NCBI GenBank assembly: GCA_964599625.1
Contig: CAZRGC010000003.1
Location: 97,759 to 161,758 of the forward strand
Direction: 5' to 3'
DNA: 64,000 nt
Source: an uncultured Gammaproteobacteria bacterium
GTDB lineage: Bacteria > Patescibacteriota > Microgenomatia > UBA8517
In this document: positions 44,202 to 56,998 of the stretch, one piece after another
How the letters are laid out: every line of letters begins with the position of its first letter
Numbering within the stretch: the stretch's first letter is position 1
Translations under genes and position numbers: made by a program
Notes under the pieces: generated by a model
The model's database searches: none
Told to the model about the DNA's origin: nothing
Seen by the model: only the letters and a program-made list of their open reading frames with translations

Positions 44202-44708
44202 ATGGCAAATTTTAACCGAACATATGCCGACCAGGCACCAAAAGAATATGAGGAGACAGTTGTTCAAATAAACAGGATCTCCAAAAAGACAAAAGGTGGA
44301 AACACAATGAGATTTTCTGCACTTATTGTGGTGGGCAACAGAAAAGGAAGAGTTGGGGTTGGTATGGCCAAGGCACACGACGTTAGAAACGCAATCCGAA
44401 AATCAATCGAGGCAGCCAAAAGAAATTTGGTGGACGTTCCTCTTACTGGAACAACCATCCCTTACTCAGTAAGCGAAAAGTATTCTGCAGCTAAAATTCT
44501 TTTGAAACCAGCACCCCCCGGATCCGGAATTATTGCAGGCGGACCAATGAGAGTTGTTTTGGAAGCGGCAGGAATCAGAGATGCAGTCGGAAAAATTTTG
44601 GGAACAAAGAATAAAATTTCTAATGTTTATGCGACACTCAAGGCGCTGGAGCAAGTATCACGCCTTGTTGTTATGAAGAAAAATGAGCCAAAAGCAGAAA
44701 CTAAATAA
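44202..44708 (+). CDS. rpsE: 30S ribosomal protein S5
   Basis: A 168-aa protein with canonical S5 sequence. Confidence 0.95.
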   Translation: MANFNRTYADQAPKEYEETVVQINRISKKTKGGNTMRFSALIVVGNRKGRVGVGMAKAHDVRNAIRKSIEAAKRNLVDVPLTGTTIPYSVSEKYSAAKILLKPAPPGSGIIAGGPMRVVLEAAGIRDAVGKILGTKNKISNVYATLKALEQVSRLVVMKKNEPKAETK

Positions 44709-44710
44709 CT

Positions 44711-45118
44711 ATGAGCAAATTACCAAAAGTTGTAACAAAGTCAAAAAAGAGAATCGGTAGAGGTTTTGGAACCGGTAAAGGTGGACACACCACAAACCGC
44801 GGACAGAAGGGGCAAAAATCCCGTGGTTCCATTGGAGTTCTTTTCGAAGGAATGAAAGTCAAGAAGTCACTTCTTAAAAGACTTCCATTGCAGCGCGGAA
44901 AAGGAAAGTTCAAAGCCAACGGAAAACCGGTTATTGTTACCCTTACCGACCTGGATATTCTCCCAACCGGTAGTGAAATTACTTTAGATCTTTTGATCAA
45001 AGAGAACTTGGTCGACCCTATTTTAGGCCGAAAATTCGGAGTAAAAGTCTTGGGAGGAGGAAAATCTACCAAGAAATTTACTTTCAAAGTCCCAACTTCC
45101 AAATCTGTAGCCAAATAA
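44711..45118 (+). CDS. rplO: 50S ribosomal protein L15
   Basis: GRGFGTGKGGHTTNRGQKGQKSRG. It follows rpsE directly, so there is no rpmD. Confidence 0.94.
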   Translation: MSKLPKVVTKSKKRIGRGFGTGKGGHTTNRGQKGQKSRGSIGVLFEGMKVKKSLLKRLPLQRGKGKFKANGKPVIVTLTDLDILPTGSEITLDLLIKENLVDPILGRKFGVKVLGGGKSTKKFTFKVPTSKSVAK

Positions 45119-45122
45119 ATAT

Positions 45123-45599
45123 ATGACAGAAAGTCCAACACCTGTTGGAGAAGAAGCAGAAAAACTACAAAAAACATCACTTTTAGTGATGTATTCACGC
45201 CAAGATATGGCAGATACAGCCCTTGAGGTAATAAAAGAACTTAGGGAAGCAGGTCTTAATGTCATCGATATAAACGATAAGATTGCAGATGGCTCGTGGG
45301 TGGGTGAGTCGGATAAAATATTGGAAAATACCCCAGCAGTTCTTGTTATTCCATCAAAATCCATAAAAGAAGATGGTTTGGTTAAGGACGCAGTTTACCG
45401 TGCCGACATGCTAAGGGTAGAAAAAAGAAAGAGAATCGTTCCAATATTTTTTCAGGCTAATGCAAATGTTTCGATAGGAGGCCTTGGCAGCCTTGCCGGA
45501 ATAAATTGGGACGGTGAGACAGAAGGGATTCAAAATTTTGATAAGACTGCAGCTTTCGGCCACCTCAAAACTTTTGTCGCCCAAAATACTAATTCATAA
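45123..45599 (+). CDS. TIR-like (Toll/interleukin receptor / SLOG-type) single-domain protein, putative
   Basis: The TIR fold order is followed: betaA LLVMYSRQD, alphaA ALEVIKELREAG, betaB NVIDIN…IADG, AVLVIPSKS, and betaD RIVPIFF. The call rests on motif topology only. Confidence 0.4.
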   Translation: MTESPTPVGEEAEKLQKTSLLVMYSRQDMADTALEVIKELREAGLNVIDINDKIADGSWVGESDKILENTPAVLVIPSKSIKEDGLVKDAVYRADMLRVEKRKRIVPIFFQANANVSIGGLGSLAGINWDGETEGIQNFDKTAAFGHLKTFVAQNTNS

Positions 45600-45601
45600 A
45601 C

Positions 45602-46030
45602 ATGGAAACAATTAAACCTAACGGGTTTTTGACAAGCTTCGAGTTTGAGGGATTAAAACTTCCTGTGGAATACGTGAGAACAGATCAAGTTTGTGAGGGT
45701 GTAACTTGCGACGTTTACAAATTTTGGGGAGACAAAAAGAAGGACTTGGCGATAATAACAATACAACCTGACGCCAAAACACCACCCCAAAAAGTTTTGT
45801 CGGGAGAAAAAACAATCGAAGGATATATTTCGGGATCGGGTGTATTTACAGTGAAAAAGGACGACGGGGGTGAAGAAAGAATATTGGTAGAAGATAAGCC
45901 CACAGAGTACTTTTCAATTCAAGTAAACGTAGGGGACACAATGCAATGGAAAGCTTCGGAAGATTCTATTCTTACTGTTTTTGAAGTTTGCTACCCCCCA
46001 TACGAAGACGGCAGGTTTCAAAATCTTTAG
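45602..46030 (+). CDS. cupin-fold protein, putative
   Basis: A beta-rich 142-aa protein with a GYISGSG…(acidic)…ILVEDKP pattern like cupin motifs 1 and 2. Confidence 0.35.
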   Translation: METIKPNGFLTSFEFEGLKLPVEYVRTDQVCEGVTCDVYKFWGDKKKDLAIITIQPDAKTPPQKVLSGEKTIEGYISGSGVFTVKKDDGGEERILVEDKPTEYFSIQVNVGDTMQWKASEDSILTVFEVCYPPYEDGRFQNL

Positions 46031-46045
46031 TGTTATACTTCCAAT

Positions 46046-46489
46046 ATGTCCCGCGATAGATTCAGACTTCTTGCAGCGTGTTACTTATTGCCAATAAAGG
46101 GGAAGAAAGTTCTTTTGTCCCGCCGTTTTAACACTGGCTGGAAGGATGGTTGGTATTCCTTGATTGCAGGGCATTTGGATGGCAACGAATCTGTAAGCGA
46201 CTCAATGATTCGTGAAGCGAAAGAGGAGTCTGGTATTGAAATTGCCAAAAAAGACTTGGTTCCTTTAACCTCCGTTCACCACAAAACAGAAGACTCAGAA
46301 TATGTGGACTTTTTCTTCGCAGTAAAAAAGTGGAAAGGTGAACCGCAAATCAAGGAGCCCAACAAGTGTGACGATATGTCCTGGTTTCCAATAGACAAAC
46401 TTCCGGAAAAATTACTTCCACACGTTAAGCAAATAATTCAAAACCTGGACTCCAATGTTCCTTTTTTTGAACACGGATGGAACAAATAA
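46046..46489 (+). CDS. NUDIX hydrolase
   Basis: The Nudix box GHLDGNESVSDSMIREAKEESGIEI fits Gx5Ex7REUxEExGU. Confidence 0.8.
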   Translation: MSRDRFRLLAACYLLPIKGKKVLLSRRFNTGWKDGWYSLIAGHLDGNESVSDSMIREAKEESGIEIAKKDLVPLTSVHHKTEDSEYVDFFFAVKKWKGEPQIKEPNKCDDMSWFPIDKLPEKLLPHVKQIIQNLDSNVPFFEHGWNK

Positions 46490-46504
46490 CTGCTAAACTA
46501 TTTT

Positions 46505-47476
46505 GTGGCTCAAAAAGAAGACGACTCCTACCAAAAATATCTTGAAGACAAACACTTGGCATTTGCAACGCCCGAAAGTCTGGTATCGTCTATGGTAAAA
46601 AAGGCAACGGGATCAGAACCCTTTTCTGTCGAAAAGTTGATTCAGGGTGAAGTGAACGAGGTTTATGATGTGGAGGCTGGTGGTCAAAATGTAATAGTAA
46701 GAATTTCCCGACAAGGACCGGAAAATTTTGAAACCGAAGAAACTGTAATACGCCTCGCTTTGCAAGCAGGTGTACCCGCTCCCAAAGTTCTTCTTTTGGA
46801 ATCTGCCTCAACCGAAACCGAAGAATTGACCTTTTGTATAGAAGAAAAGATTGAAGGAAAGCCATTGAAAGAATTACTAAAAACTCTGGACGCAGAAACT
46901 CTCAAGGCAATTCTGATTCAGTCGGGCGAGATATTATCCCGTATCCATTCATTGGAAACGGACAGATTTGGGCCCTTGGATAGGCAGGTCTTTTATCCTT
47001 CATGGACAGAATATTTATTCAGGAAGGAAGAAAATAAACGTGAGATAATTGAGTATGGCTCTAAAGTGGGACTCCTGCCCGGTGTTATAGATAAAGCCTT
47101 TTCTATACAAAGGAAAAACTCAGGAATTTTGGAAATACAAATCCCCTATATTCTGCACGGCGATTTTAGTCCCAAACACATTCTCACGAATGGAAAAACA
47201 GTCACTGGAATAATAGATTTTGAAGACGCCAAAGGAGGCGATCCGGTGAGAGATATTGCTTGGATGAACTTTTTTTATGGCGATTCGGTAAATCTTGAGT
47301 GGTTTTTAGAAGGATACGGAAGGGAAAAAACAGGAATGGACTTTGATATAAAAATGAGACTTTTGAAAGTTAACTTGGGACTGGACCTGTTGGATTATTA
47401 CGGATCAGAAGGTAATATTTCAGGACTTAAATACTCGAAACGTAAATTGGAGGAAGAGATGGAATTTTTCAAATGA
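46505..47476 (+). CDS. phosphotransferase-family kinase (APH/choline-kinase-like fold)
   Basis: The Brenner motif is ILHGDFSPKHIL and the metal-binding segment is IIDFEDAKGGDPVRDIAWM. A Lys-containing N-lobe is present. Confidence 0.65.
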   Translation: MAQKEDDSYQKYLEDKHLAFATPESLVSSMVKKATGSEPFSVEKLIQGEVNEVYDVEAGGQNVIVRISRQGPENFETEETVIRLALQAGVPAPKVLLLESASTETEELTFCIEEKIEGKPLKELLKTLDAETLKAILIQSGEILSRIHSLETDRFGPLDRQVFYPSWTEYLFRKEENKREIIEYGSKVGLLPGVIDKAFSIQRKNSGILEIQIPYILHGDFSPKHILTNGKTVTGIIDFEDAKGGDPVRDIAWMNFFYGDSVNLEWFLEGYGREKTGMDFDIKMRLLKVNLGLDLLDYYGSEGNISGLKYSKRKLEEEMEFFK

Positions 47477-47483
47477 CCCGACA

Positions 47484-48065
47484 ATGAATTCAAACACAAT
47501 AGTAATTTTGGGAACCCTGATTGGTGCAATTGGCTCGATCTTTTATCTTGTCGACGTTGTTAAGGGAAAAATAAAACCCAATCGGGTTTCTTTTATTCTT
47601 TGGTCACTCCCACCATTGATATCTGCATACGCAAATATTAAAAGTGGCGGTGGAATTGAATCTTTAATGACTTTTAGTGTTGGTTTTTTTCCACTGCTTA
47701 TATTTTTGGCAACTTTTCTCAACAAAAAATCCGTTTGGAAACTTACCAAATTTGATTTTGTTTGCGGCGCACTTTCACTTTTGGGATTCCTGCTTTGGCA
47801 GGTAACAAAAGAAGGATATTTGGCAATAACTTTTAGTATAGTTTCCGATTTTTTGGCTGGAATTCCCACCATAACAAAAACTTACAAACACCCAGAAACG
47901 GAACTGGCTTGGCCCTGGTTGATGCCGGTCTTGGGAGAAATTCTTACACTTTCCACACTTGGGGATATTACTTATCTCAACTCAGGTTTCATGATTTACG
48001 TAACTTTGTATAACACAGTCATTTTTCTTTTGGCGCAGTATAAAATCGGAAAGATATGGAAATAA
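47484..48065 (+). CDS. integral membrane protein, hypothetical
   Basis: 193 aa with about six TM helices. Confidence 0.45.
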   Translation: MNSNTIVILGTLIGAIGSIFYLVDVVKGKIKPNRVSFILWSLPPLISAYANIKSGGGIESLMTFSVGFFPLLIFLATFLNKKSVWKLTKFDFVCGALSLLGFLLWQVTKEGYLAITFSIVSDFLAGIPTITKTYKHPETELAWPWLMPVLGEILTLSTLGDITYLNSGFMIYVTLYNTVIFLLAQYKIGKIWK

Positions 48066-48562
48066 TTAAACTACCTGTTTCAGAGTGGAAAAGTTATAAA
48101 GCAATAAGGCTTCGAGCTCTCAAGGAAGACCCTCAGGCATTTGGAGCCTCATACGACGATGCGGTCAAATTTGACGAGTCCGAATGGAGACGCAGGCTTG
48201 AAAATGCCGAAAATTCGGACAGAAGTTGGTTATGGTTTGCACAAGAAAACCAGAAAATTGTAGGCCTTATTGGGGCATATATGGAAAAAGGTGCAACAAA
48301 TGAGGCAACTATAGTTTCTGTTTTTGTTCCCAAGGAAGAAAGAGGGAAAGGAATATCGAGCCTTTTGATGGATAAGATGATATCCGAACTTTCAGCTAAA
48401 CCATATCTCAAAAAAATTAATTTGACTGTGAACAAAGACCAAGTAGCGGCCGTAAATCTTTATACAAAGTTTGGTTTCGTAAAAGTCGGTGAGCAAAATT
48501 TTAAAATGGGAAACGGTCAGAAGGCTGTGGAATTTGTTATGGAAAGACAAATTAGCACTTAA
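48056..48562 (+). CDS. GNAT family N-acetyltransferase
   Basis: Acetyl-CoA motif A is VFVPKEERGKGISSLLMDKM. The size is 168 aa. Confidence 0.7.
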   Translation: MEIIKLPVSEWKSYKAIRLRALKEDPQAFGASYDDAVKFDESEWRRRLENAENSDRSWLWFAQENQKIVGLIGAYMEKGATNEATIVSVFVPKEERGKGISSLLMDKMISELSAKPYLKKINLTVNKDQVAAVNLYTKFGFVKVGEQNFKMGNGQKAVEFVMERQIST

Positions 48563-48606
48563 GGTCTGTCATTGATAACTTAGTTGCGATATAATTCAAC
48601 TTCGGT

Positions 48607-49890
48607 ATGTTTGAACAAATTTTGAATTTCTTCAAGAAAGCTGTAACCACACCTTCTATTAGGAAGAAGCTTCTGGTTACCGCGGTTATCCTTGTTGTAT
48701 TTCGTTTGGCAGGACATATCCCGGCCGCAGGAATAGATCGCAATACACTCACCGCACTCTTTTTGGGAAGCCCTCTTCTTTCGCTTTTGGATGTGTTTTC
48801 CGGAGGAACTCTTGCAAACTTTTCTATTTTGGCCTTAGGGCTTAACCCTTACATCAATGCATCCATTATTTTGCAGCTTTTGGGTTATGTAGTTCCATCG
48901 TTGGAAGCCTTGCAAAAAGAGGGTGAGTACGGCCAGGAGAAAATAAATCAGTACACAAGGCTTTTGACAGTGCCTCTTGCGGCTCTCCAGGCGTTTGGTA
49001 TGTACGCACTCCTTAAGGGGCAAAATGTAATTTCCAATCTTGCTCCTTTGGAACTTTTGGCTTTGGTGATTACGATGACAGCCGGAACTGTTTTCTCGGT
49101 TTGGTTGGGAGAGCTGATTAGCGAGTATGGATTTAAAAATGGAGTTTCCCTGCTAATTTTTACAGGAATAGTAGCAAGACTTCCTGTTGTTTTGGGACAG
49201 TCGGCCAGTGTTGTACAGTCGCAGGATATTCTGAAAGTAATTCTCTTCCTGGTTGTAGCAGCTTTGGTTGTGGGAATGATTATTTTCATAAGTGAAGCTT
49301 CCCGCAAAATCCCAATACACTATGCAAAAAGACGCACCGACACAGGTTTGGGGGCAACTTCCTATTTACCACTAAGACTCAATCAAGCAGGTGTGATTCC
49401 TATCATATTCGCGGTTTCATTGGTTTTGATACCTTCGCTTATGGGTCAGTTTTTGGCCAACATTCCAAATGCTGCTGTTGCGAATGCTGCCAGATTCATA
49501 AGTACTGCATTTAATCCCCAGTCTGTTGTCTATAACCTTACATATTTTGTTTTAGTGTTTGGTTTCACTTATTTTTATACAGCGGTTATTTTCAATCCGG
49601 ATAAAATTTCCGAAGATTTACAAAAAGGTGGAGGTTTTATTCCGGGAATCAGACCCGGAAAAGAAACATCCAAATATTTGTCTTTCGTTTTGTCTCGTTT
49701 GACAGTGGTTGGAGGAGTGTTTTTGGGTTTGGTTGCTGTCATGCCTTCTTTCTTTCAAAATTCGATTGGTGCCAGTAATTTAGCAATTGGAGGAACTGGG
49801 GTGTTGATTGTTGTTTCTGTGGCTTTGGAAATTGTCAGAGAAATGGAAGGTGAGTTGGTAATGGGTAAGTATGAAGGTTTTCTAAGATGA
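48607..49890 (+). CDS. secY: preprotein translocase subunit SecY
   Basis: 427 aa with 10 TM helices and canonical SecY blocks. Confidence 0.96.
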
Positions 49891-55954: not shown

Positions 55955-56998
55955 ATGTCAGAACCACTTTATGATCCGACGGTTTTGGAAAAATATGAAG
56001 TGCCGGAAGCTTTCCGTTATTCGTTGGACGAAGAAGAGGTGACCAACGAAGAAATTTCGGCTGTCAGGCGTTTGGTAAGGGAAAATAAAATAGAGCAAAA
56101 AGGAGCATTTGCAGCAGGTATTAAATACGCGAGGCAAGAGATAATAGCGCTGGAGAATGATCTGGGTCTGGTTCAGAAAGATGAAAGGTCGATGCAAGTA
56201 GCTGTCTTACCCGACGCAGTATTTGAAAAGGCATACTTTGATCTTACCCGTCAAGAAGCCGGAGACAGTGGTGGCGGTTATGCAAACGCACTGGGAAGTG
56301 TTGTATTAAGAGCAAGTACCGACCCTGCATATATAAAATCTTCAATGGTTTACCACGAGTTTGTACATAAGTTTATAGATAAGCATATACAGGTTTTTTC
56401 CAAGGTAAGACGCCCAAGTGGCAGAATTGCCCATGATTATGTAGATAGAAGATCGGGTCTATCGGTGGAAAATGTAACCAAAGAAAGCTCGGCAAAAGGG
56501 ACAAAACCCCGCGGCGAACTTTTGAATGAGCTGGGAAACTACATGGAACAGCATAGGTTTATTTTAAATATATTGGATAAGCCCGAATTTGCTGAAGAAA
56601 AACAGAGGCGCGAGAAACTTCTCAGATCGATGGGTTTTGGAGAATCGGGAGGGTTTTGGATAGCAAATGTCAAAAAGCAGGATGGGAGTACATTGCAGAT
56701 AAACCTTGATAGAGACAGTATTCATATTGACGAAAACGGGGATTTTAATCCCGCAACCCTGTTTTTTTATATGCAACTTGCAACGGATTTGGGAAAGGCA
56801 TGTGACCCACAAAACGATGGGGCGGCTTTCAGGAAGCTTCTTTTGGATTGTAAAGTTGATCCCTCAAAACAAAACGAACTCAGAAAGATGGTGGATATGG
56901 GAATGGGAGAGGGTTTTTACACCAGATTAAAGTCGGCGGGTTACCAATCGGACGATGAACTTTTAGACCTCATTGTAGAGGTGCAATCCAAACTATAG
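55955..56998 (+). CDS. hypothetical protein with HExxH motif (putative zinc metallopeptidase)
   Basis: MVYHEFVHKF is the only recognisable motif. The size is 347 aa. Confidence 0.35.
   Translation: MSEPLYDPTVLEKYEVPEAFRYSLDEEEVTNEEISAVRRLVRENKIEQKGAFAAGIKYARQEIIALENDLGLVQKDERSMQVAVLPDAVFEKAYFDLTRQEAGDSGGGYANALGSVVLRASTDPAYIKSSMVYHEFVHKFIDKHIQVFSKVRRPSGRIAHDYVDRRSGLSVENVTKESSAKGTKPRGELLNELGNYMEQHRFILNILDKPEFAEEKQRREKLLRSMGFGESGGFWIANVKKQDGSTLQINLDRDSIHIDENGDFNPATLFFYMQLATDLGKACDPQNDGAAFRKLLLDCKVDPSKQNELRKMVDMGMGEGFYTRLKSAGYQSDDELLDLIVEVQSKL

What the first reader, a model, noticed from the sequence alone, without database searches (positions are those of the whole stretch)
45123..48562. Accessory island between rplO and secY with APH-like kinase, GNAT, NUDIX, cupin, TIR-like and membrane genes
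rplO-secY is a near-universal adjacency in the spc operon. Here 3.4 kb of non-ribosomal genes intervene, all on the same strand and tightly packed. Two belong to the classic aminoglycoside-modifying enzyme folds. One is a phosphotransferase with an HGDxxxxN motif and IIDFEDA. The other is a GNAT acetyltransferase. Their placement inside the ribosomal-protein/translocon operon is suggestive of ribosome-targeting antibiotic self-protection, or of small-molecule modification co-regulated with translation. Both folds also have many non-resistance members, so this remains a hypothesis.
Basis: partly seen in the sequence, partly recalled or inferred. Interest (0 to 1): 0.65.

Follow-up and report, generated by a model that had tools for sequence, protein, structure and literature searches.

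The report
Swappable gene island before secY
In one lineage of tiny uncultivated bacteria (Woesebacteria), the junction between the ribosomal-protein genes and secY has become a drop-in site for swappable accessory genes, and this window carries six of them, including an antibiotic-kinase-like enzyme whose real substrate is still unknown.

Summary
Six co-oriented, tightly packed non-ribosomal genes lie between rplO and secY: TIR-like, cupin, NUDIX, APH-fold kinase, a 7-TM PQ-loop/SWEET-fold membrane protein, and GNAT. The organism is a Candidatus Woesebacteria (CPR).

Among 74 related species the rplO-secY spacer is mostly under 130 bp. In one sub-clade it is 0.3-9 kb, with different, mosaic contents. 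Only that sub-clade has a conserved promoter-like element, with TATAAT ending 8-12 nt before the secY ATG.

Near-identical strains (flanks 96-98% nt) differ sharply inside the island: the TIR allele is 53% aa identical and the kinase tract 70-90% nt. That pattern indicates allele exchange by recombination. The genes are under purifying selection.

It scores far below every resistance-model cutoff, and its neighbours elsewhere look metabolic. The GNAT reaches no AAC or RimI cutoff. An Erm-like methyltransferase occupies the same site in two relatives.

Verdict: a lineage-specific accessory-gene hotspot at an operon boundary. Antibiotic resistance is plausible for some cargo but unproven.

The parts
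44711..45118 (+). rplO (L15), the last ribosomal-protein gene of the S10-spc run and the upstream conserved flank of the hotspot
   Evidence: ORF; Pfam Ribosomal_L27A; 99% aa identity to L174.
45123..45599 (+). TIR-like protein (158 aa), a hypervariable allele that starts 4 nt after the rplO stop
   Evidence: Pfam TIR_2 36.9 bits against cutoff 28. Only 6 representatives (one a repeat artefact) among 1.84 billion proteins. Invariant E100, S78 and W129. 53% aa / ~58% nt identity to the sibling strain whose flanks are 96-98% identical.
45602..46030 (+). Cupin-fold protein (142 aa) without the usual metal-binding histidines
46046..46489 (+). NUDIX hydrolase (147 aa) with an intact Nudix box (GHLDGNESVSDSMIREAKEESGI)
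   Evidence: Pfam NUDIX E 4.8e-18. No NCBIfam equivalog cutoff met. Replaced by a HAD phosphatase in L001. dN/dS 0.08-0.09.
46505..47476 (+). APH-fold kinase (323 aa, GTG start) of a CPR-restricted subfamily closest to APH(2'')-Id and APH(4)-Ia
   Evidence: Pfam APH E 8.8e-23. PDB hits. Invariant H218, D220, H225, D238, R66 and E78. 77 homolog clusters, those with a source name being CPR. dN/dS 0.06.
47484..48065 (+). 7-TM PQ-loop/SWEET/cystinosin-fold membrane protein (193 aa), a probable small-molecule transporter
48056..48562 (+). GNAT N-acetyltransferase (168 aa), overlapping the membrane gene by 10 nt
   Evidence: Pfam Acetyltransf_1 E 4.7e-17. Best NCBIfam hit is rimI at 51.9 bits against 86.4; AAC(3)-I scores 22.6 against 200. 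PDB neighbours are generic or polyamine GNATs. A 58% homolog lies directly after the kinase in L084.
48566..48595 (+). Promoter-like element for secY (CTGTCA-18 nt-TATAAT; the -10 hexamer ends 11 nt before the ATG)
   Evidence: scan. It is the only CTGT-N20-TATAAT in the 64 kb window. TATAAT at 8-12 nt from the secY ATG is conserved in 23 related species, with a further match at 16 nt in L042, and these include every species with a large gap except L068.
48607..49890 (+). secY, the downstream conserved flank, followed by adk, map, infA, rpmJ, rpsM, rpsK and rpsD
   Evidence: Pfam SecY.
46300..47650 (.). Second divergent tract (3' end of NUDIX, whole kinase, 5' end of membrane gene), at 70-90% nt identity to sibling strains against 96-98% in the ribosomal and secY-adk flanks and 93-98% in the adjacent island segments
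   Evidence: Sliding-window identity against L174, L175 and L176. Kinase dS 1.04 against 0.11-0.24 in flanking genes.

Best explanation
The six genes are cargo of a lineage-specific accessory-gene hotspot at the 3' end of the ribosomal-protein operon. They are not a dedicated ribosome-protection operon.

In this Woesebacteria sub-clade secY appears to have acquired its own promoter. This is inferred from a conserved TATAAT 8-12 nt before the ATG, which would give a near-leaderless mRNA. The rplO|secY junction is then a transcription-unit boundary, where DNA can be inserted without uncoupling essential genes.

The extremely conserved flanks provide homology arms. Cargo and alleles are therefore exchanged between strains by homologous recombination. 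This is shown as mosaic divergence; the mechanism is inferred.

Cargo placed on the operon strand directly after rplO, as here with a 4-nt spacer, is probably expressed by read-through from the ribosomal-protein transcript (inferred).

The cargo in this window is a set of small-molecule enzymes kept under purifying selection. The APH(2'')/APH(4)-like kinase and the adjacent PQ-loop/SWEET-fold transporter most likely act on the same imported or exported small molecule, through transport plus phosphorylation. The GNAT, NUDIX and cupin proteins are accessory modifiers or hydrolases. A rare, hypervariable TIR-like protein leads the block.

My estimates for the kinase's role are: about 0.4 for salvage or trapping of a metabolite (amino-sugar-, cyclitol- or nucleoside-like), about 0.3-0.35 for detoxification of an aminoglycoside-like antibiotic, and the rest for other roles.
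For: Hotspot:
- The rplO-secY spacer is at most 232 bp in 39 of 40 species that lack the promoter-like element.
- It exceeds 300 bp (up to 9.1 kb) in 18 of 22 species that have the element (Fisher p 7e-11).
- Other operon junctions are almost never interrupted.
- 104 gap ORFs from 19 sources (the window and 18 loci) fall into 64 families, 42 of them singletons.
- A Pfam census of 118 gap ORFs from 22 sources finds NUDIX 8, GNAT 7, APH 6, SNase 5, and also TPR, Trp-repressor-like, hydrolases, NTP_transf_6 and RrnaAD.
- Further cargo includes a type II restriction-modification pair, an EamA transporter, GDSL lipases, a DHH pyrophosphatase and methyltransferases.
- 'Empty' sites of ~120 bp that still carry the promoter element exist in the same clade: L003, L023 and L025.

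Recombination:
- Against sibling strains, flanks are 96-98% nt identical. The TIR gene is ~58% nt and 53% aa identical, with boundaries at the gene ends. The region 46300-47650 is 70-90% identical.
- The L174 TIR allele is closer to that of the distant L001 (64%) than to W (53%).

Function retained: dN/dS is 0.05-0.09 for cupin, NUDIX, kinase, membrane protein and GNAT.

Kinase recurs at this site: besides the window, L001, L020, L081, L083/L131, L084, L095 and L174-176 carry it at this site with otherwise different neighbours; rplO lies off the L095, L175 and L176 contigs and secY off L174.

Kinase and transporter link: they are adjacent here and in L001 and L175. Homologs of both (34% and 30% identity) co-occur in the unrelated cluster L177, together with MFS, IMPase-like, Ldh_2 and P-loop kinase genes.

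No mobile-element signature: no tRNA, no flanking repeats, no GC shift, and no integrase among the families listed.
Against: - The promoter is a consensus match plus a phylogenetic footprint. It is not a mapped transcription start.
- The clade association is effectively a single evolutionary event, so the Fisher test overstates independence.
- Read-through expression of the island is not shown.
- The census lists only the 25 commonest Pfam families, so a rare integrase or transposase could have been missed.
- The kinase-transporter link rests on two independent contexts only. The other islands that carry the kinase (L020, L081, L083, L084) lack the transporter.
- The recurrence of APH, GNAT and Erm-like genes at a ribosomal locus could reflect a real thematic bias towards ribosome-targeting drugs, rather than neutral accumulation.
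Confidence: 0.65

Rival explanations
1. Dedicated resistance (or self-protection) module against ribosome-targeting antibiotics. The kinase O-phosphorylates and the GNAT N-acetylates an aminoglycoside-like drug. The PQ-loop protein exports it. Placement in the ribosomal operon couples expression to ribosome synthesis.
For: - All 36 solved-structure hits of the kinase-family profile carry antibiotic-kinase or aminoglycoside-phosphotransferase-family names (APH(2''), APH(4), APH(7''), Mph).
- The catalytic loop and Mg-binding motifs match APH(2'')-Id: HNDFSSDH / GIIDFGDA against HGDFSPKH / GIIDFEDA.
- The kinase is directly followed by a GNAT in L084. This recalls the bifunctional AAC(6')-APH(2'') enzyme, itself a 36.8-bit hit.
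- An Erm-like methyltransferase sits at the same site in L021 (217.1 against cutoff 212) and L006.
- APH and GNAT are among the three commonest cargo families.
- The kinase in this window is acidic, pI 4.9.
- AR-like genes, including APH- and AAC-like ones at 20-30% similarity, have been reported across CPR genomes (PMC8651080).
Against: - The kinase scores 39.5 bits against 725 for APH(4)-Ia and 31 against 600 for APH(2'')-Ie/IVa.
- Alignment to APH(2'') stops before the antibiotic-binding C-terminal subdomain.
- In the APH(4)-Ia alignment, the residues I recall as the hygromycin-contacting W235 and W238 align to F and D (residue roles from memory).
- The family median pI is 6.05 and ranges up to 9.4.
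- The family is CPR-only and absent from the viral collection.
- The GNAT meets no AAC model.
- TIR, cupin and NUDIX have no role in this model.
- Most cargo at the site in relatives is unrelated to antibiotics.
- No biosynthetic genes are present.
Confidence: 0.25
2. Anti-phage defence islet. The hypervariable TIR-like protein senses infection or degrades NAD+, with the NUDIX and kinase as partners. Defence genes typically cluster in variable hotspots.
For: - TIR_2 domain present, with an invariant Glu (E100) in the family.
- Extreme allelic divergence of the TIR gene between near-identical strains.
- NUDIX hit to the PADLOC candidate PDC-S07, E 1.8e-9.
- A restriction-modification pair (L068) and an AbiEii toxin (L081) occupy the same site in relatives.
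Against: - No PADLOC system model is matched. The TIR scores only E 0.017 to a SAVED-TIR model and shows no ThsB hit.
- No ThsA, SIR2, SLOG or other effector partner is present.
- The TIR-like gene was found only in the W lineage and L001 among the 80 fetched species loci.
- Its synonymous sites are saturated, so the divergence is an old imported allele rather than demonstrable positive selection.
- The TIR-like protein has no solved-structure relative by sequence.
Confidence: 0.1
3. Core translation-linked functions. The GNAT is a RimI-type ribosomal-protein acetyltransferase, and the kinase is a Bud32/RIO-like ribosome-associated kinase, which would explain the location.
For: - The best curated GNAT hit is rimI TIGR01575 at 51.9 bits. 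The same holds for the GNATs of L084 and L008.
- There is a weak Bud32 hit for the kinase N-lobe, E 5e-5.
Against: - The rimI score is below the cutoff of 86.4.
- The genes are absent from most relatives at this site and are patchy, so they are not core.
- No RimI structure is among the PDB hits.
- The kinase's full-length similarity is to small-molecule antibiotic kinases.
Confidence: 0.05

Closest known systems
APH(2'')-IVa/Id and APH(4)-Ia aminoglycoside O-phosphotransferases
   Same: The kinase has the same APH/eukaryotic-like kinase fold family (PF01636). It shares the catalytic loop with His at D+5 (HxDFSxxH) and the GIIDFxDA Mg-binding motif. These enzymes are the top solved-structure hits.
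   Different: The kinase has only weak similarity to these enzymes. It scores 31-40 bits against curated cutoffs of 600-725. The substrate-binding C-terminal part does not align to APH(2''). The family is restricted to CPR bacteria, and the substrate is unknown.
Bifunctional AAC(6')-Ie/APH(2'')-Ia
   Same: It combines a GNAT acetyltransferase with an APH(2'')-type kinase. Here the two are in one block, and in L084 they are adjacent with a 4-nt overlap.
   Different: Here they are separate genes, split in this window by a transporter gene. The GNAT matches no AAC model at threshold.
Chromosomal hotspots of horizontal gene transfer flanked by core genes (genomic islets exchanged by homologous recombination; from my own knowledge, e.g. 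Oliveira et al. 2017)
   Same: Variable, mosaic cargo lies between two highly conserved core genes. Empty sites exist in related genomes. Allele exchange is visible between close strains. No integrase is needed.
   Different: The site lies inside the most conserved gene array of bacteria (S10-spc-alpha). It is confined to one Woesebacteria sub-clade, and it coincides with a lineage-specific secY promoter-like element.
Canonical spc operon (rplO-secY co-transcription, as in E. coli and B. subtilis; from my own knowledge)
   Same: The gene order is the same: rplN-rplX-rplE-rpsN-rpsH-rplF-rplR-rpsE-rplO ... secY-adk-map-infA-rpmJ-rpsM-rpsK-rpsD.
   Different: There is no rpmD. A 3.4 kb insert lies between rplO and secY. 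A TATAAT ends 11 nt upstream of the secY ATG, suggesting a separate, near-leaderless secY transcript.
PQ-loop / SWEET / cystinosin transporters
   Different: It has no Pfam PQ-loop or MtN3 hit and 6-11% identity to the top three full-length matches. It belongs to an unannotated family of about 670 proteins at ~60% identity across phyla.
Erm 23S rRNA methyltransferases (in relatives, not in this window)
   Same: The gap gene of L021 passes the NCBIfam Erm 'broad' equivalog cutoff, 217.1 against 212.
   Different: It is not present in this window. The L006 copy is below the cutoff. The KsgA score is close behind (167.7 against 171), so a housekeeping-like role is not excluded.

Membership tests
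Aminoglycoside O-phosphotransferase (resistance APH) | APH/ePK-like kinase domain (PF01636) | tested here: met
   E 8.8e-23, 81.7 bits against cutoff 23.2.
Aminoglycoside O-phosphotransferase (resistance APH) | Catalytic loop HxDxxxx(N/H) and a downstream Mg-binding Asp | tested here: met
   H218, D220, H225 and D238 are invariant in 26 family members. The loop aligns to HNDFSSDH / GIIDFGDA of APH(2'')-Id.
Aminoglycoside O-phosphotransferase (resistance APH) | Score at or above the curated cutoff of an NCBIfam resistance model | tested here: not met
   APH(4)-Ia 39.5 against 725; APH(3') 32.7 against 205; APH(2'')-Ie/IVa 31 against 600; Mph(C) 21.3 against 550.
Aminoglycoside O-phosphotransferase (resistance APH) | Conserved antibiotic-binding C-terminal subdomain or residues | tested here: inconclusive
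   The profile alignment to APH(2'')-Id ends at chain residue 233. In the APH(4)-Ia alignment, W235 and W238 align to F and D (their role in hygromycin binding is from memory). No structure model of the kinase was made.
Aminoglycoside O-phosphotransferase (resistance APH) | Phosphorylates an aminoglycoside or raises the MIC | not testable with these tools
   This needs expression and enzyme assays.
Aminoglycoside N-acetyltransferase (AAC) | GNAT fold with an acetyl-CoA motif | tested here: met
   Acetyltransf_1 E 4.7e-17. RGKGIS (R/Q-x-x-G-x-G/A) is visible in the sequence.
Aminoglycoside N-acetyltransferase (AAC) | Score at or above the cutoff of an AAC model | tested here: not met
   AAC(3)-I scores 22.6 against 200. 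No AAC(6') model is among the 25 listed hits.
RimI/RimJ/RimL ribosomal-protein acetyltransferases | Score at or above the cutoff of TIGR01575 or a related model | tested here: not met
   rimI 51.9 against 86.4; PRK09491 24.6 against 173. No RimJ or RimL hit.
RimI/RimJ/RimL ribosomal-protein acetyltransferases | Conserved (core) presence in relatives | tested here: not met
   GNATs occur in the gap of only a minority of genomes, 7 of 118 gap ORFs. Presence of a separate RimI elsewhere in the genome was not tested.
Integron gene-cassette array | attC recombination sites between cassettes and an IntI integrase | tested here: not met
   Spacers run from -10 to 15 nt, leaving no room for attC. No structured repeats were found, and no integrase is among the listed families.
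Core-gene-flanked horizontal-transfer hotspot (genomic islet) | Different gene content between the same conserved flanks in related genomes, with empty sites | tested here: met
   Gaps range from 12 to 9312 bp (up to 9114 bp by the method). 64 families occur among 104 ORFs. Empty sites are L003, L023 and L025.
Core-gene-flanked horizontal-transfer hotspot (genomic islet) | Evidence of recombinational exchange | tested here: met
   Mosaic identity of 96-98% in flanks against 58% and 70-90% in two tracts. dS is heterogeneous, 0.11-1.04. Allele relationships are discordant.
Classical integrative genomic island | tRNA or att target, integrase, and compositional deviation | tested here: not met
   No tRNA, no flanking direct repeats, and GC 0.37-0.42 like the flanks.
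Thoeris-type or other TIR anti-phage system | TIR domain protein | tested here: met
   TIR_2 36.9 bits against cutoff 28.
Thoeris-type or other TIR anti-phage system | Match to a system model and a partner effector (ThsA/SIR2/SLOG, SAVED, etc.) | tested here: not met
   PADLOC gives only a SAVED-TIR hit at E 0.017 and no ThsB or ThsA hit. No effector-like neighbour is present.
Cupin superfamily | Double-stranded beta-helix fold | tested here: met
Cupin superfamily | Conserved His/Glu metal-binding motifs | tested here: not met
   There is no invariant His in the 38-sequence alignment. The invariant residues include Y39, Q63, E73 and the M114-Q115-W116 triplet, E128 and R138.
PQ-loop/SWEET transporters | 7-TM 3+1+3 fold | tested here: met
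PQ-loop/SWEET transporters | Sequence-family membership (Pfam PQ-loop/MtN3) | tested here: not met
   No Pfam or NCBIfam hit at E<=0.1.

The most novel reading that the evidence does not exclude
In this Woesebacteria clade the 3' end of the ribosomal-protein operon serves as a recombination-exchanged expression platform for ribosome-protecting genes. These would be an APH(2'')-like kinase, a partner GNAT, and Erm-like rRNA methyltransferases in relatives. Because the platform is flanked by universally conserved genes, its cargo could move between species by simple homologous recombination, forming a translation-coupled resistome in host-dependent CPR bacteria.
Probability: 0.15. Interest if true: 0.75.

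Novelty: new variant of a known kind. Interest (0 to 1): 0.45.

Why it matters
The S10-spc-alpha array is the most conserved gene block in bacteria, and it is the backbone of phylogenomics and binning for uncultivated lineages. This finding shows that one CPR clade has opened the block at a defined point and uses it as an accessory-gene hotspot.

It gives three things:
- A natural, easily anchored site (rplO and secY primers or HMMs) for harvesting strain-variable genes and measuring recombination in organisms that cannot be cultured.
- A concrete link between a small regulatory change (a secY-proximal promoter) and the birth of a hotspot.
- A short list of recurrent cargo for biochemical testing: the CPR-specific APH(2'')-like kinase, the GNAT, NUDIX, an Erm-like methyltransferase, a rare TIR-like protein and an unannotated PQ-loop-fold transporter family.

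If the kinase proves to be an antibiotic kinase, it would be direct evidence for drug resistance in CPR bacteria. If it is a salvage kinase, it adds to the picture of how these auxotrophs scavenge metabolites.

Tried and rejected
- Integron-like cassette array: rejected. Spacers run from -10 to 15 nt, and no attC-like repeats or integrase were found.
- tRNA- or att-targeted island: rejected.
- Foreign composition: none.
- RNA elements or riboswitch: no Rfam hit in the whole window.
- Conserved kinase partner: neighbour clustering over 91 kinase loci found no single partner. SecY is the commonest neighbour, followed by NUDIX and HAD.
- PQ-loop protein contexts in Anaerolineales and Amesbacteria: uninformative, apart from a recurring Ldh_2 gene.
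- Cupin contexts: uninformative. One copy lies beside NUDIX and MazG-like genes in a Saccharibacteria genome.
- TIR-like protein against PDB sequences: nothing found.
- The 4417-aa hit P0241: a summed weak repeat match, not a relative.
- Kinase relatives on viral contigs: none.
- Acidic pI as a proxy for aminoglycoside binding: not consistent across the family.
- CTGT-N20-TATAAT as a general promoter motif in the window: only the secY site matches. Only one other gene has TATAAT 7 nt before its ATG.
- Literature searches for an rplO-secY island or a Woesebacteria operon hotspot: nothing relevant.
- The afdb50 fold library was unavailable.
- Both structure-prediction slots went to the two proteins without Pfam hits, so no model of the kinase or the TIR-like protein was made.

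Full report
**1. What is there**

Between rplO (44711-45118) and secY (48607-49890) lie six + strand ORFs, with spacers of 4, 2, 15, 15, 7, -10 and 44 nt.
- Pfam assigns TIR_2 to 45123-45599 (36.9 bits, cutoff 28), NUDIX to 46046-46489, APH (PF01636) to 46505-47476 and GNAT to 48056-48562.
- The two ORFs without any Pfam or NCBIfam hit were modelled from alignments of their homologs.

One detail is not: the kinase motif is HGDFSPKH, with an invariant His rather than Asn at D+5.

There is no GC anomaly, no tRNA, no flanking or internal structured repeats and no Rfam element.

**2. Organism and comparative picture**

The closest SecY relatives are Candidatus Woesebacteria / Microgenomates MAGs. 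I fetched 80 species-level loci and measured every junction of the operon from rplE to rpsD.
- Only rplO|secY (19 of 74 above 300 bp, maximum 9.1 kb) and, less often, secY|adk (10 of 79) are interrupted. The other ten junctions are interrupted in 0-3 genomes.
- The interrupted rplO|secY sites are concentrated in the sub-clade closest to the window (SecY 74-89% identical). More distant Woesebacteria have the canonical spacers, nearly all under 130 bp.
- Contents differ from genome to genome. 104 gap ORFs of at least 80 aa from 19 sources (the window and 18 loci) form 64 families, 42 of them singletons. 70% are on the operon strand.
- A Pfam census of 118 gap ORFs gives NUDIX 8, GNAT 7, APH 6, SNase 5, TPR 4, Trp-repressor-like 3, alpha/beta hydrolases 3, NTP_transf_6 2 and RrnaAD 2.
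- Individually scanned ORFs add MazG-like, cytidine deaminase, sigma-70 region 4, HAD, cyclase, a DHH/DHHA2 pyrophosphatase, an EamA transporter, GDSL lipases, SAM methyltransferases and an EcoO109I-type restriction-modification pair. HD and AbiEii come from the precomputed gene tables of L084 and L081.
- No integrase or transposase was seen among these.

**3. Why this junction**

Aligning the 70 nt upstream of secY shows a conserved element, roughly ctgtYTTTAGGATCAg...tttgGGATATAAT.
- TATAAT is invariant and ends 8-12 nt before the secY ATG in 23 of 66 loci; a 24th, L042, has it at 16 nt.
- The bases between the hexamer and the ATG vary freely.
- In the window it is CTGTCA-18-TATAAT at 48566-48595. 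This is the only CTGT-N20-TATAAT in 64 kb.
- With the element, 18 of 22 measurable gaps exceed 300 bp. Without it, 1 of 40 does, and that one is the restriction-modification insertion in L068 (Fisher p 7e-11).
- The test is not phylogenetically independent, because the element marks one clade.
- Clade members with 'empty' sites of ~120 bp (L003, L023, L025) also carry the element.

I infer that the ancestor of this clade gave secY its own promoter, probably yielding a near-leaderless mRNA. That turned rplO|secY into an operon boundary where insertions are tolerated. In the window the cargo starts 4 nt after the rplO stop on the same strand, so it is most simply expressed by read-through from the ribosomal-protein transcript. 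This last step is inference, not shown.

**4. The island is recombinationally active and functional**

Contigs from three other sequencing runs (L174-L176) carry the same six genes.
- Their flanks are 96-98% nt identical to the window: rpsE, rplO, secY, adk and map are 99-100% aa identical, with dS 0.11-0.24.
- The TIR-like gene is only ~58% nt / 53% aa identical, with breakpoints at the gene ends.
- The tract 46300-47650 (3' end of NUDIX, kinase, 5' end of the membrane gene) is 70-90% identical, with kinase dS 1.04.
- The L174 TIR allele is closer to that of L001 (64%) than to the window's (53%), although L001 is a different species with SecY 89% identical.
- This mosaic is what allelic replacement by homologous recombination produces.
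- dN/dS is 0.05-0.09 for cupin, NUDIX, kinase, membrane protein and GNAT, so these are maintained genes.
- In L001 the NUDIX is replaced by a HAD phosphatase at the same position.

**5. The kinase**

Classification:
- Its family comprises only 77 clusters; those with a source name are Microgenomates/CPR.
- H218, D220, H225, D238, R66 and E78 are invariant, so it is probably active.
- All solved-structure hits carry antibiotic-kinase or aminoglycoside-phosphotransferase-family names. For the single sequence the top hits are APH(4)-Ia (56 bits) and APH(2'')-Id (35 bits). For the family profile they are APH(2'')-Id (67.6), APH(4)-Ia (62.4), then APH(2'')-IIa, APH(7''), AAC/APH and Mph.
- The profile aligns HgDFspkH / giiDFedA to HNDFSSDH / GIIDFGDA of APH(2'')-Id.
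- No choline, homoserine, MTR or hexosamine kinase is hit at E<=1e-3.

Reasons for caution:
- Every curated resistance model is missed by an order of magnitude.
- The APH(2'') alignment stops before the substrate-binding subdomain.
- The positions I recall as hygromycin-contacting tryptophans in APH(4)-Ia are F and D here (memory).
- The family pI is not consistently acidic.
- No relatives are on viral contigs.

Genomic contexts:
- Homologs at 47-89% identity sit at this site in L001, L020, L081, L083/L131, L084, L095 and L174-176, with otherwise different neighbours. The short contigs L095, L174, L175 and L176 each show only one of the two flanks.
- Others of 51% identity or less sit elsewhere (L099, L103, L125, P0042, P0055, P0071).
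- Across 91 loci the recurrent non-core neighbours are NUDIX (two clusters, 7 loci and the window) and HAD (3 loci).
- Two homologs are fused to a P-loop AAA_18 kinase domain.
- One fusion lies in a cluster with an MFS transporter, two IMPase-like genes, Ldh_2, DAO, PNPOx, further P-loop kinases and a 30%-identical homolog of the window's PQ-loop protein.
- That second, independent co-occurrence suggests the kinase and the PQ-loop protein work on the same small molecule.

I rate metabolite salvage or trapping at about 0.4, antibiotic detoxification at about 0.3-0.35, and other roles for the remainder.

**6. GNAT, NUDIX and the TIR-like protein**

- GNAT: the best curated hit is RimI (51.9 against 86.4). 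PaiA, ArsN1 and PseH follow, and AAC(3)-I scores 22.6 against 200. PDB neighbours are generic or polyamine acetyltransferases. It is accessory, not core, so a RimI role is unlikely. An AAC role is unsupported but not excluded. A 58% homolog directly follows the kinase in L084.
- NUDIX: the Nudix box is intact, but no equivalog model is met.
- TIR-like protein: the family is extremely rare, with six representatives in 1.84 billion proteins, one of them a repeat artefact. It keeps an invariant Glu, E100, and matches no defence-system model.

**7.

The block is not core, the kinase does not group with sugar or homoserine kinases, and the GNAT does not reach RimI.

A new point in its favour is that an Erm-like methyltransferase occupies the same site in L021 (217.1 against cutoff 212; KsgA 167.7 against 171) and in L006 (191.4). 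AR-like genes of this remoteness are already reported across CPR genomes (PMC8651080).

However, the location is explained without invoking antibiotics, most cargo at the site is unrelated to ribosomes, and no resistance threshold is met. I therefore file the finding as a lineage-specific accessory-gene hotspot at an operon boundary (confidence 0.65). The resistance module is the main rival (0.25).

**8. Novelty and score**

Core-flanked hotspots and APH/GNAT-like genes in CPR are both known kinds. New here are:
- the position inside the S10-spc-alpha array;
- the coincidence with a secY-proximal promoter-like element;
- the strain-level allele swapping;
- the recurrent CPR-specific APH(2'')-like kinase.

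I found no paper describing this. Interest is 0.45: a useful and somewhat surprising piece of genome architecture with testable biochemistry, but not a new kind of system.

Noticed in passing
L021:8709-9524 (-) and L006:8389-9234 (-): An Erm-like rRNA adenine dimethylase lies in the rplO-secY gap of two related species. The L021 copy passes the NCBIfam Erm 'broad' cutoff (217.1 against 212), while its KsgA score is just below cutoff (167.7 against 171). Next to it, L021:7696-8712 is weakly EmtA/Trm14-like.
   Followed up: partly
L068:7953-9948: A type II restriction-modification pair (an EcoO109I-like endonuclease plus a C5 cytosine methylase with a MerR-type HTH) is inserted between rplO and secY. 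This genome lacks the secY promoter-like element.
   Followed up: partly
secY-adk junction in L005, L027, L002, L060, L077, L047, L068, L054, L044, L012: The secY|adk junction is also interrupted (0.4-5.2 kb) in 10 of 79 Woesebacteria species. A 7.5 kb insert lies between map and infA in L076. The contents were not examined.
   Followed up: no
window 44202-45118: No rpmD (L30) gene lies between rpsE and rplO. The two genes are 2 nt apart. This fits the reported absence of L30 in CPR bacteria (from my own knowledge).
   Followed up: no
window 47484-48065 and P0078-P0197: The PQ-loop-fold membrane protein belongs to an unannotated family of about 670 proteins. They stay ~60% identical across Woesebacteria, Amesbacteria, Anaerolineales and Bacteroidales MAGs, with 65 invariant positions in a 33-sequence alignment. 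This indicates unusually strong constraint or recent horizontal spread.
   Followed up: partly
L177:1-11500: A cluster of unknown origin contains Ldh_2, DAO, two IMPase-like genes, a PQ-loop homolog, PNPOx, several AAA_18 P-loop kinases, an MFS transporter and an AAA_18-APH fusion kinase. It looks like a small-molecule (cyclitol- or sugar-like?) pathway and may hold the clue to the kinase's substrate. Ldh_2 also sits next to the PQ-loop homolog in L093.
   Followed up: partly
L017:16709-17149, L004:18653-19093: Close homologs (56-61%) of the island's NUDIX lie 7-9 kb downstream of secY in relatives. This gene therefore seems to move between the hotspot and another locus.
   Followed up: no
P0240, P0243: The few distant relatives of the TIR-like protein carry a ~55-residue N-terminal extension with two CxxC pairs (zinc-ribbon-like), which is absent from the window's copy.
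   Followed up: no
L081:3678-4352: An AbiEii-family toxin gene lies in the rplO-secY gap of a kinase-bearing relative.
   Followed up: no
window 55955-56998: This is the only other gene in the window with a TATAAT hexamer ending 7 nt before its ATG, so it is possibly another near-leaderless transcript. The gene was not identified.
   Followed up: no
window 45090-48610 (all island gene starts): None of the 25-nt stretches read upstream of the six island genes, secY and adk shows a GGAGG-type Shine-Dalgarno sequence. Starts are tightly coupled to the preceding stop codons.
   Followed up: no
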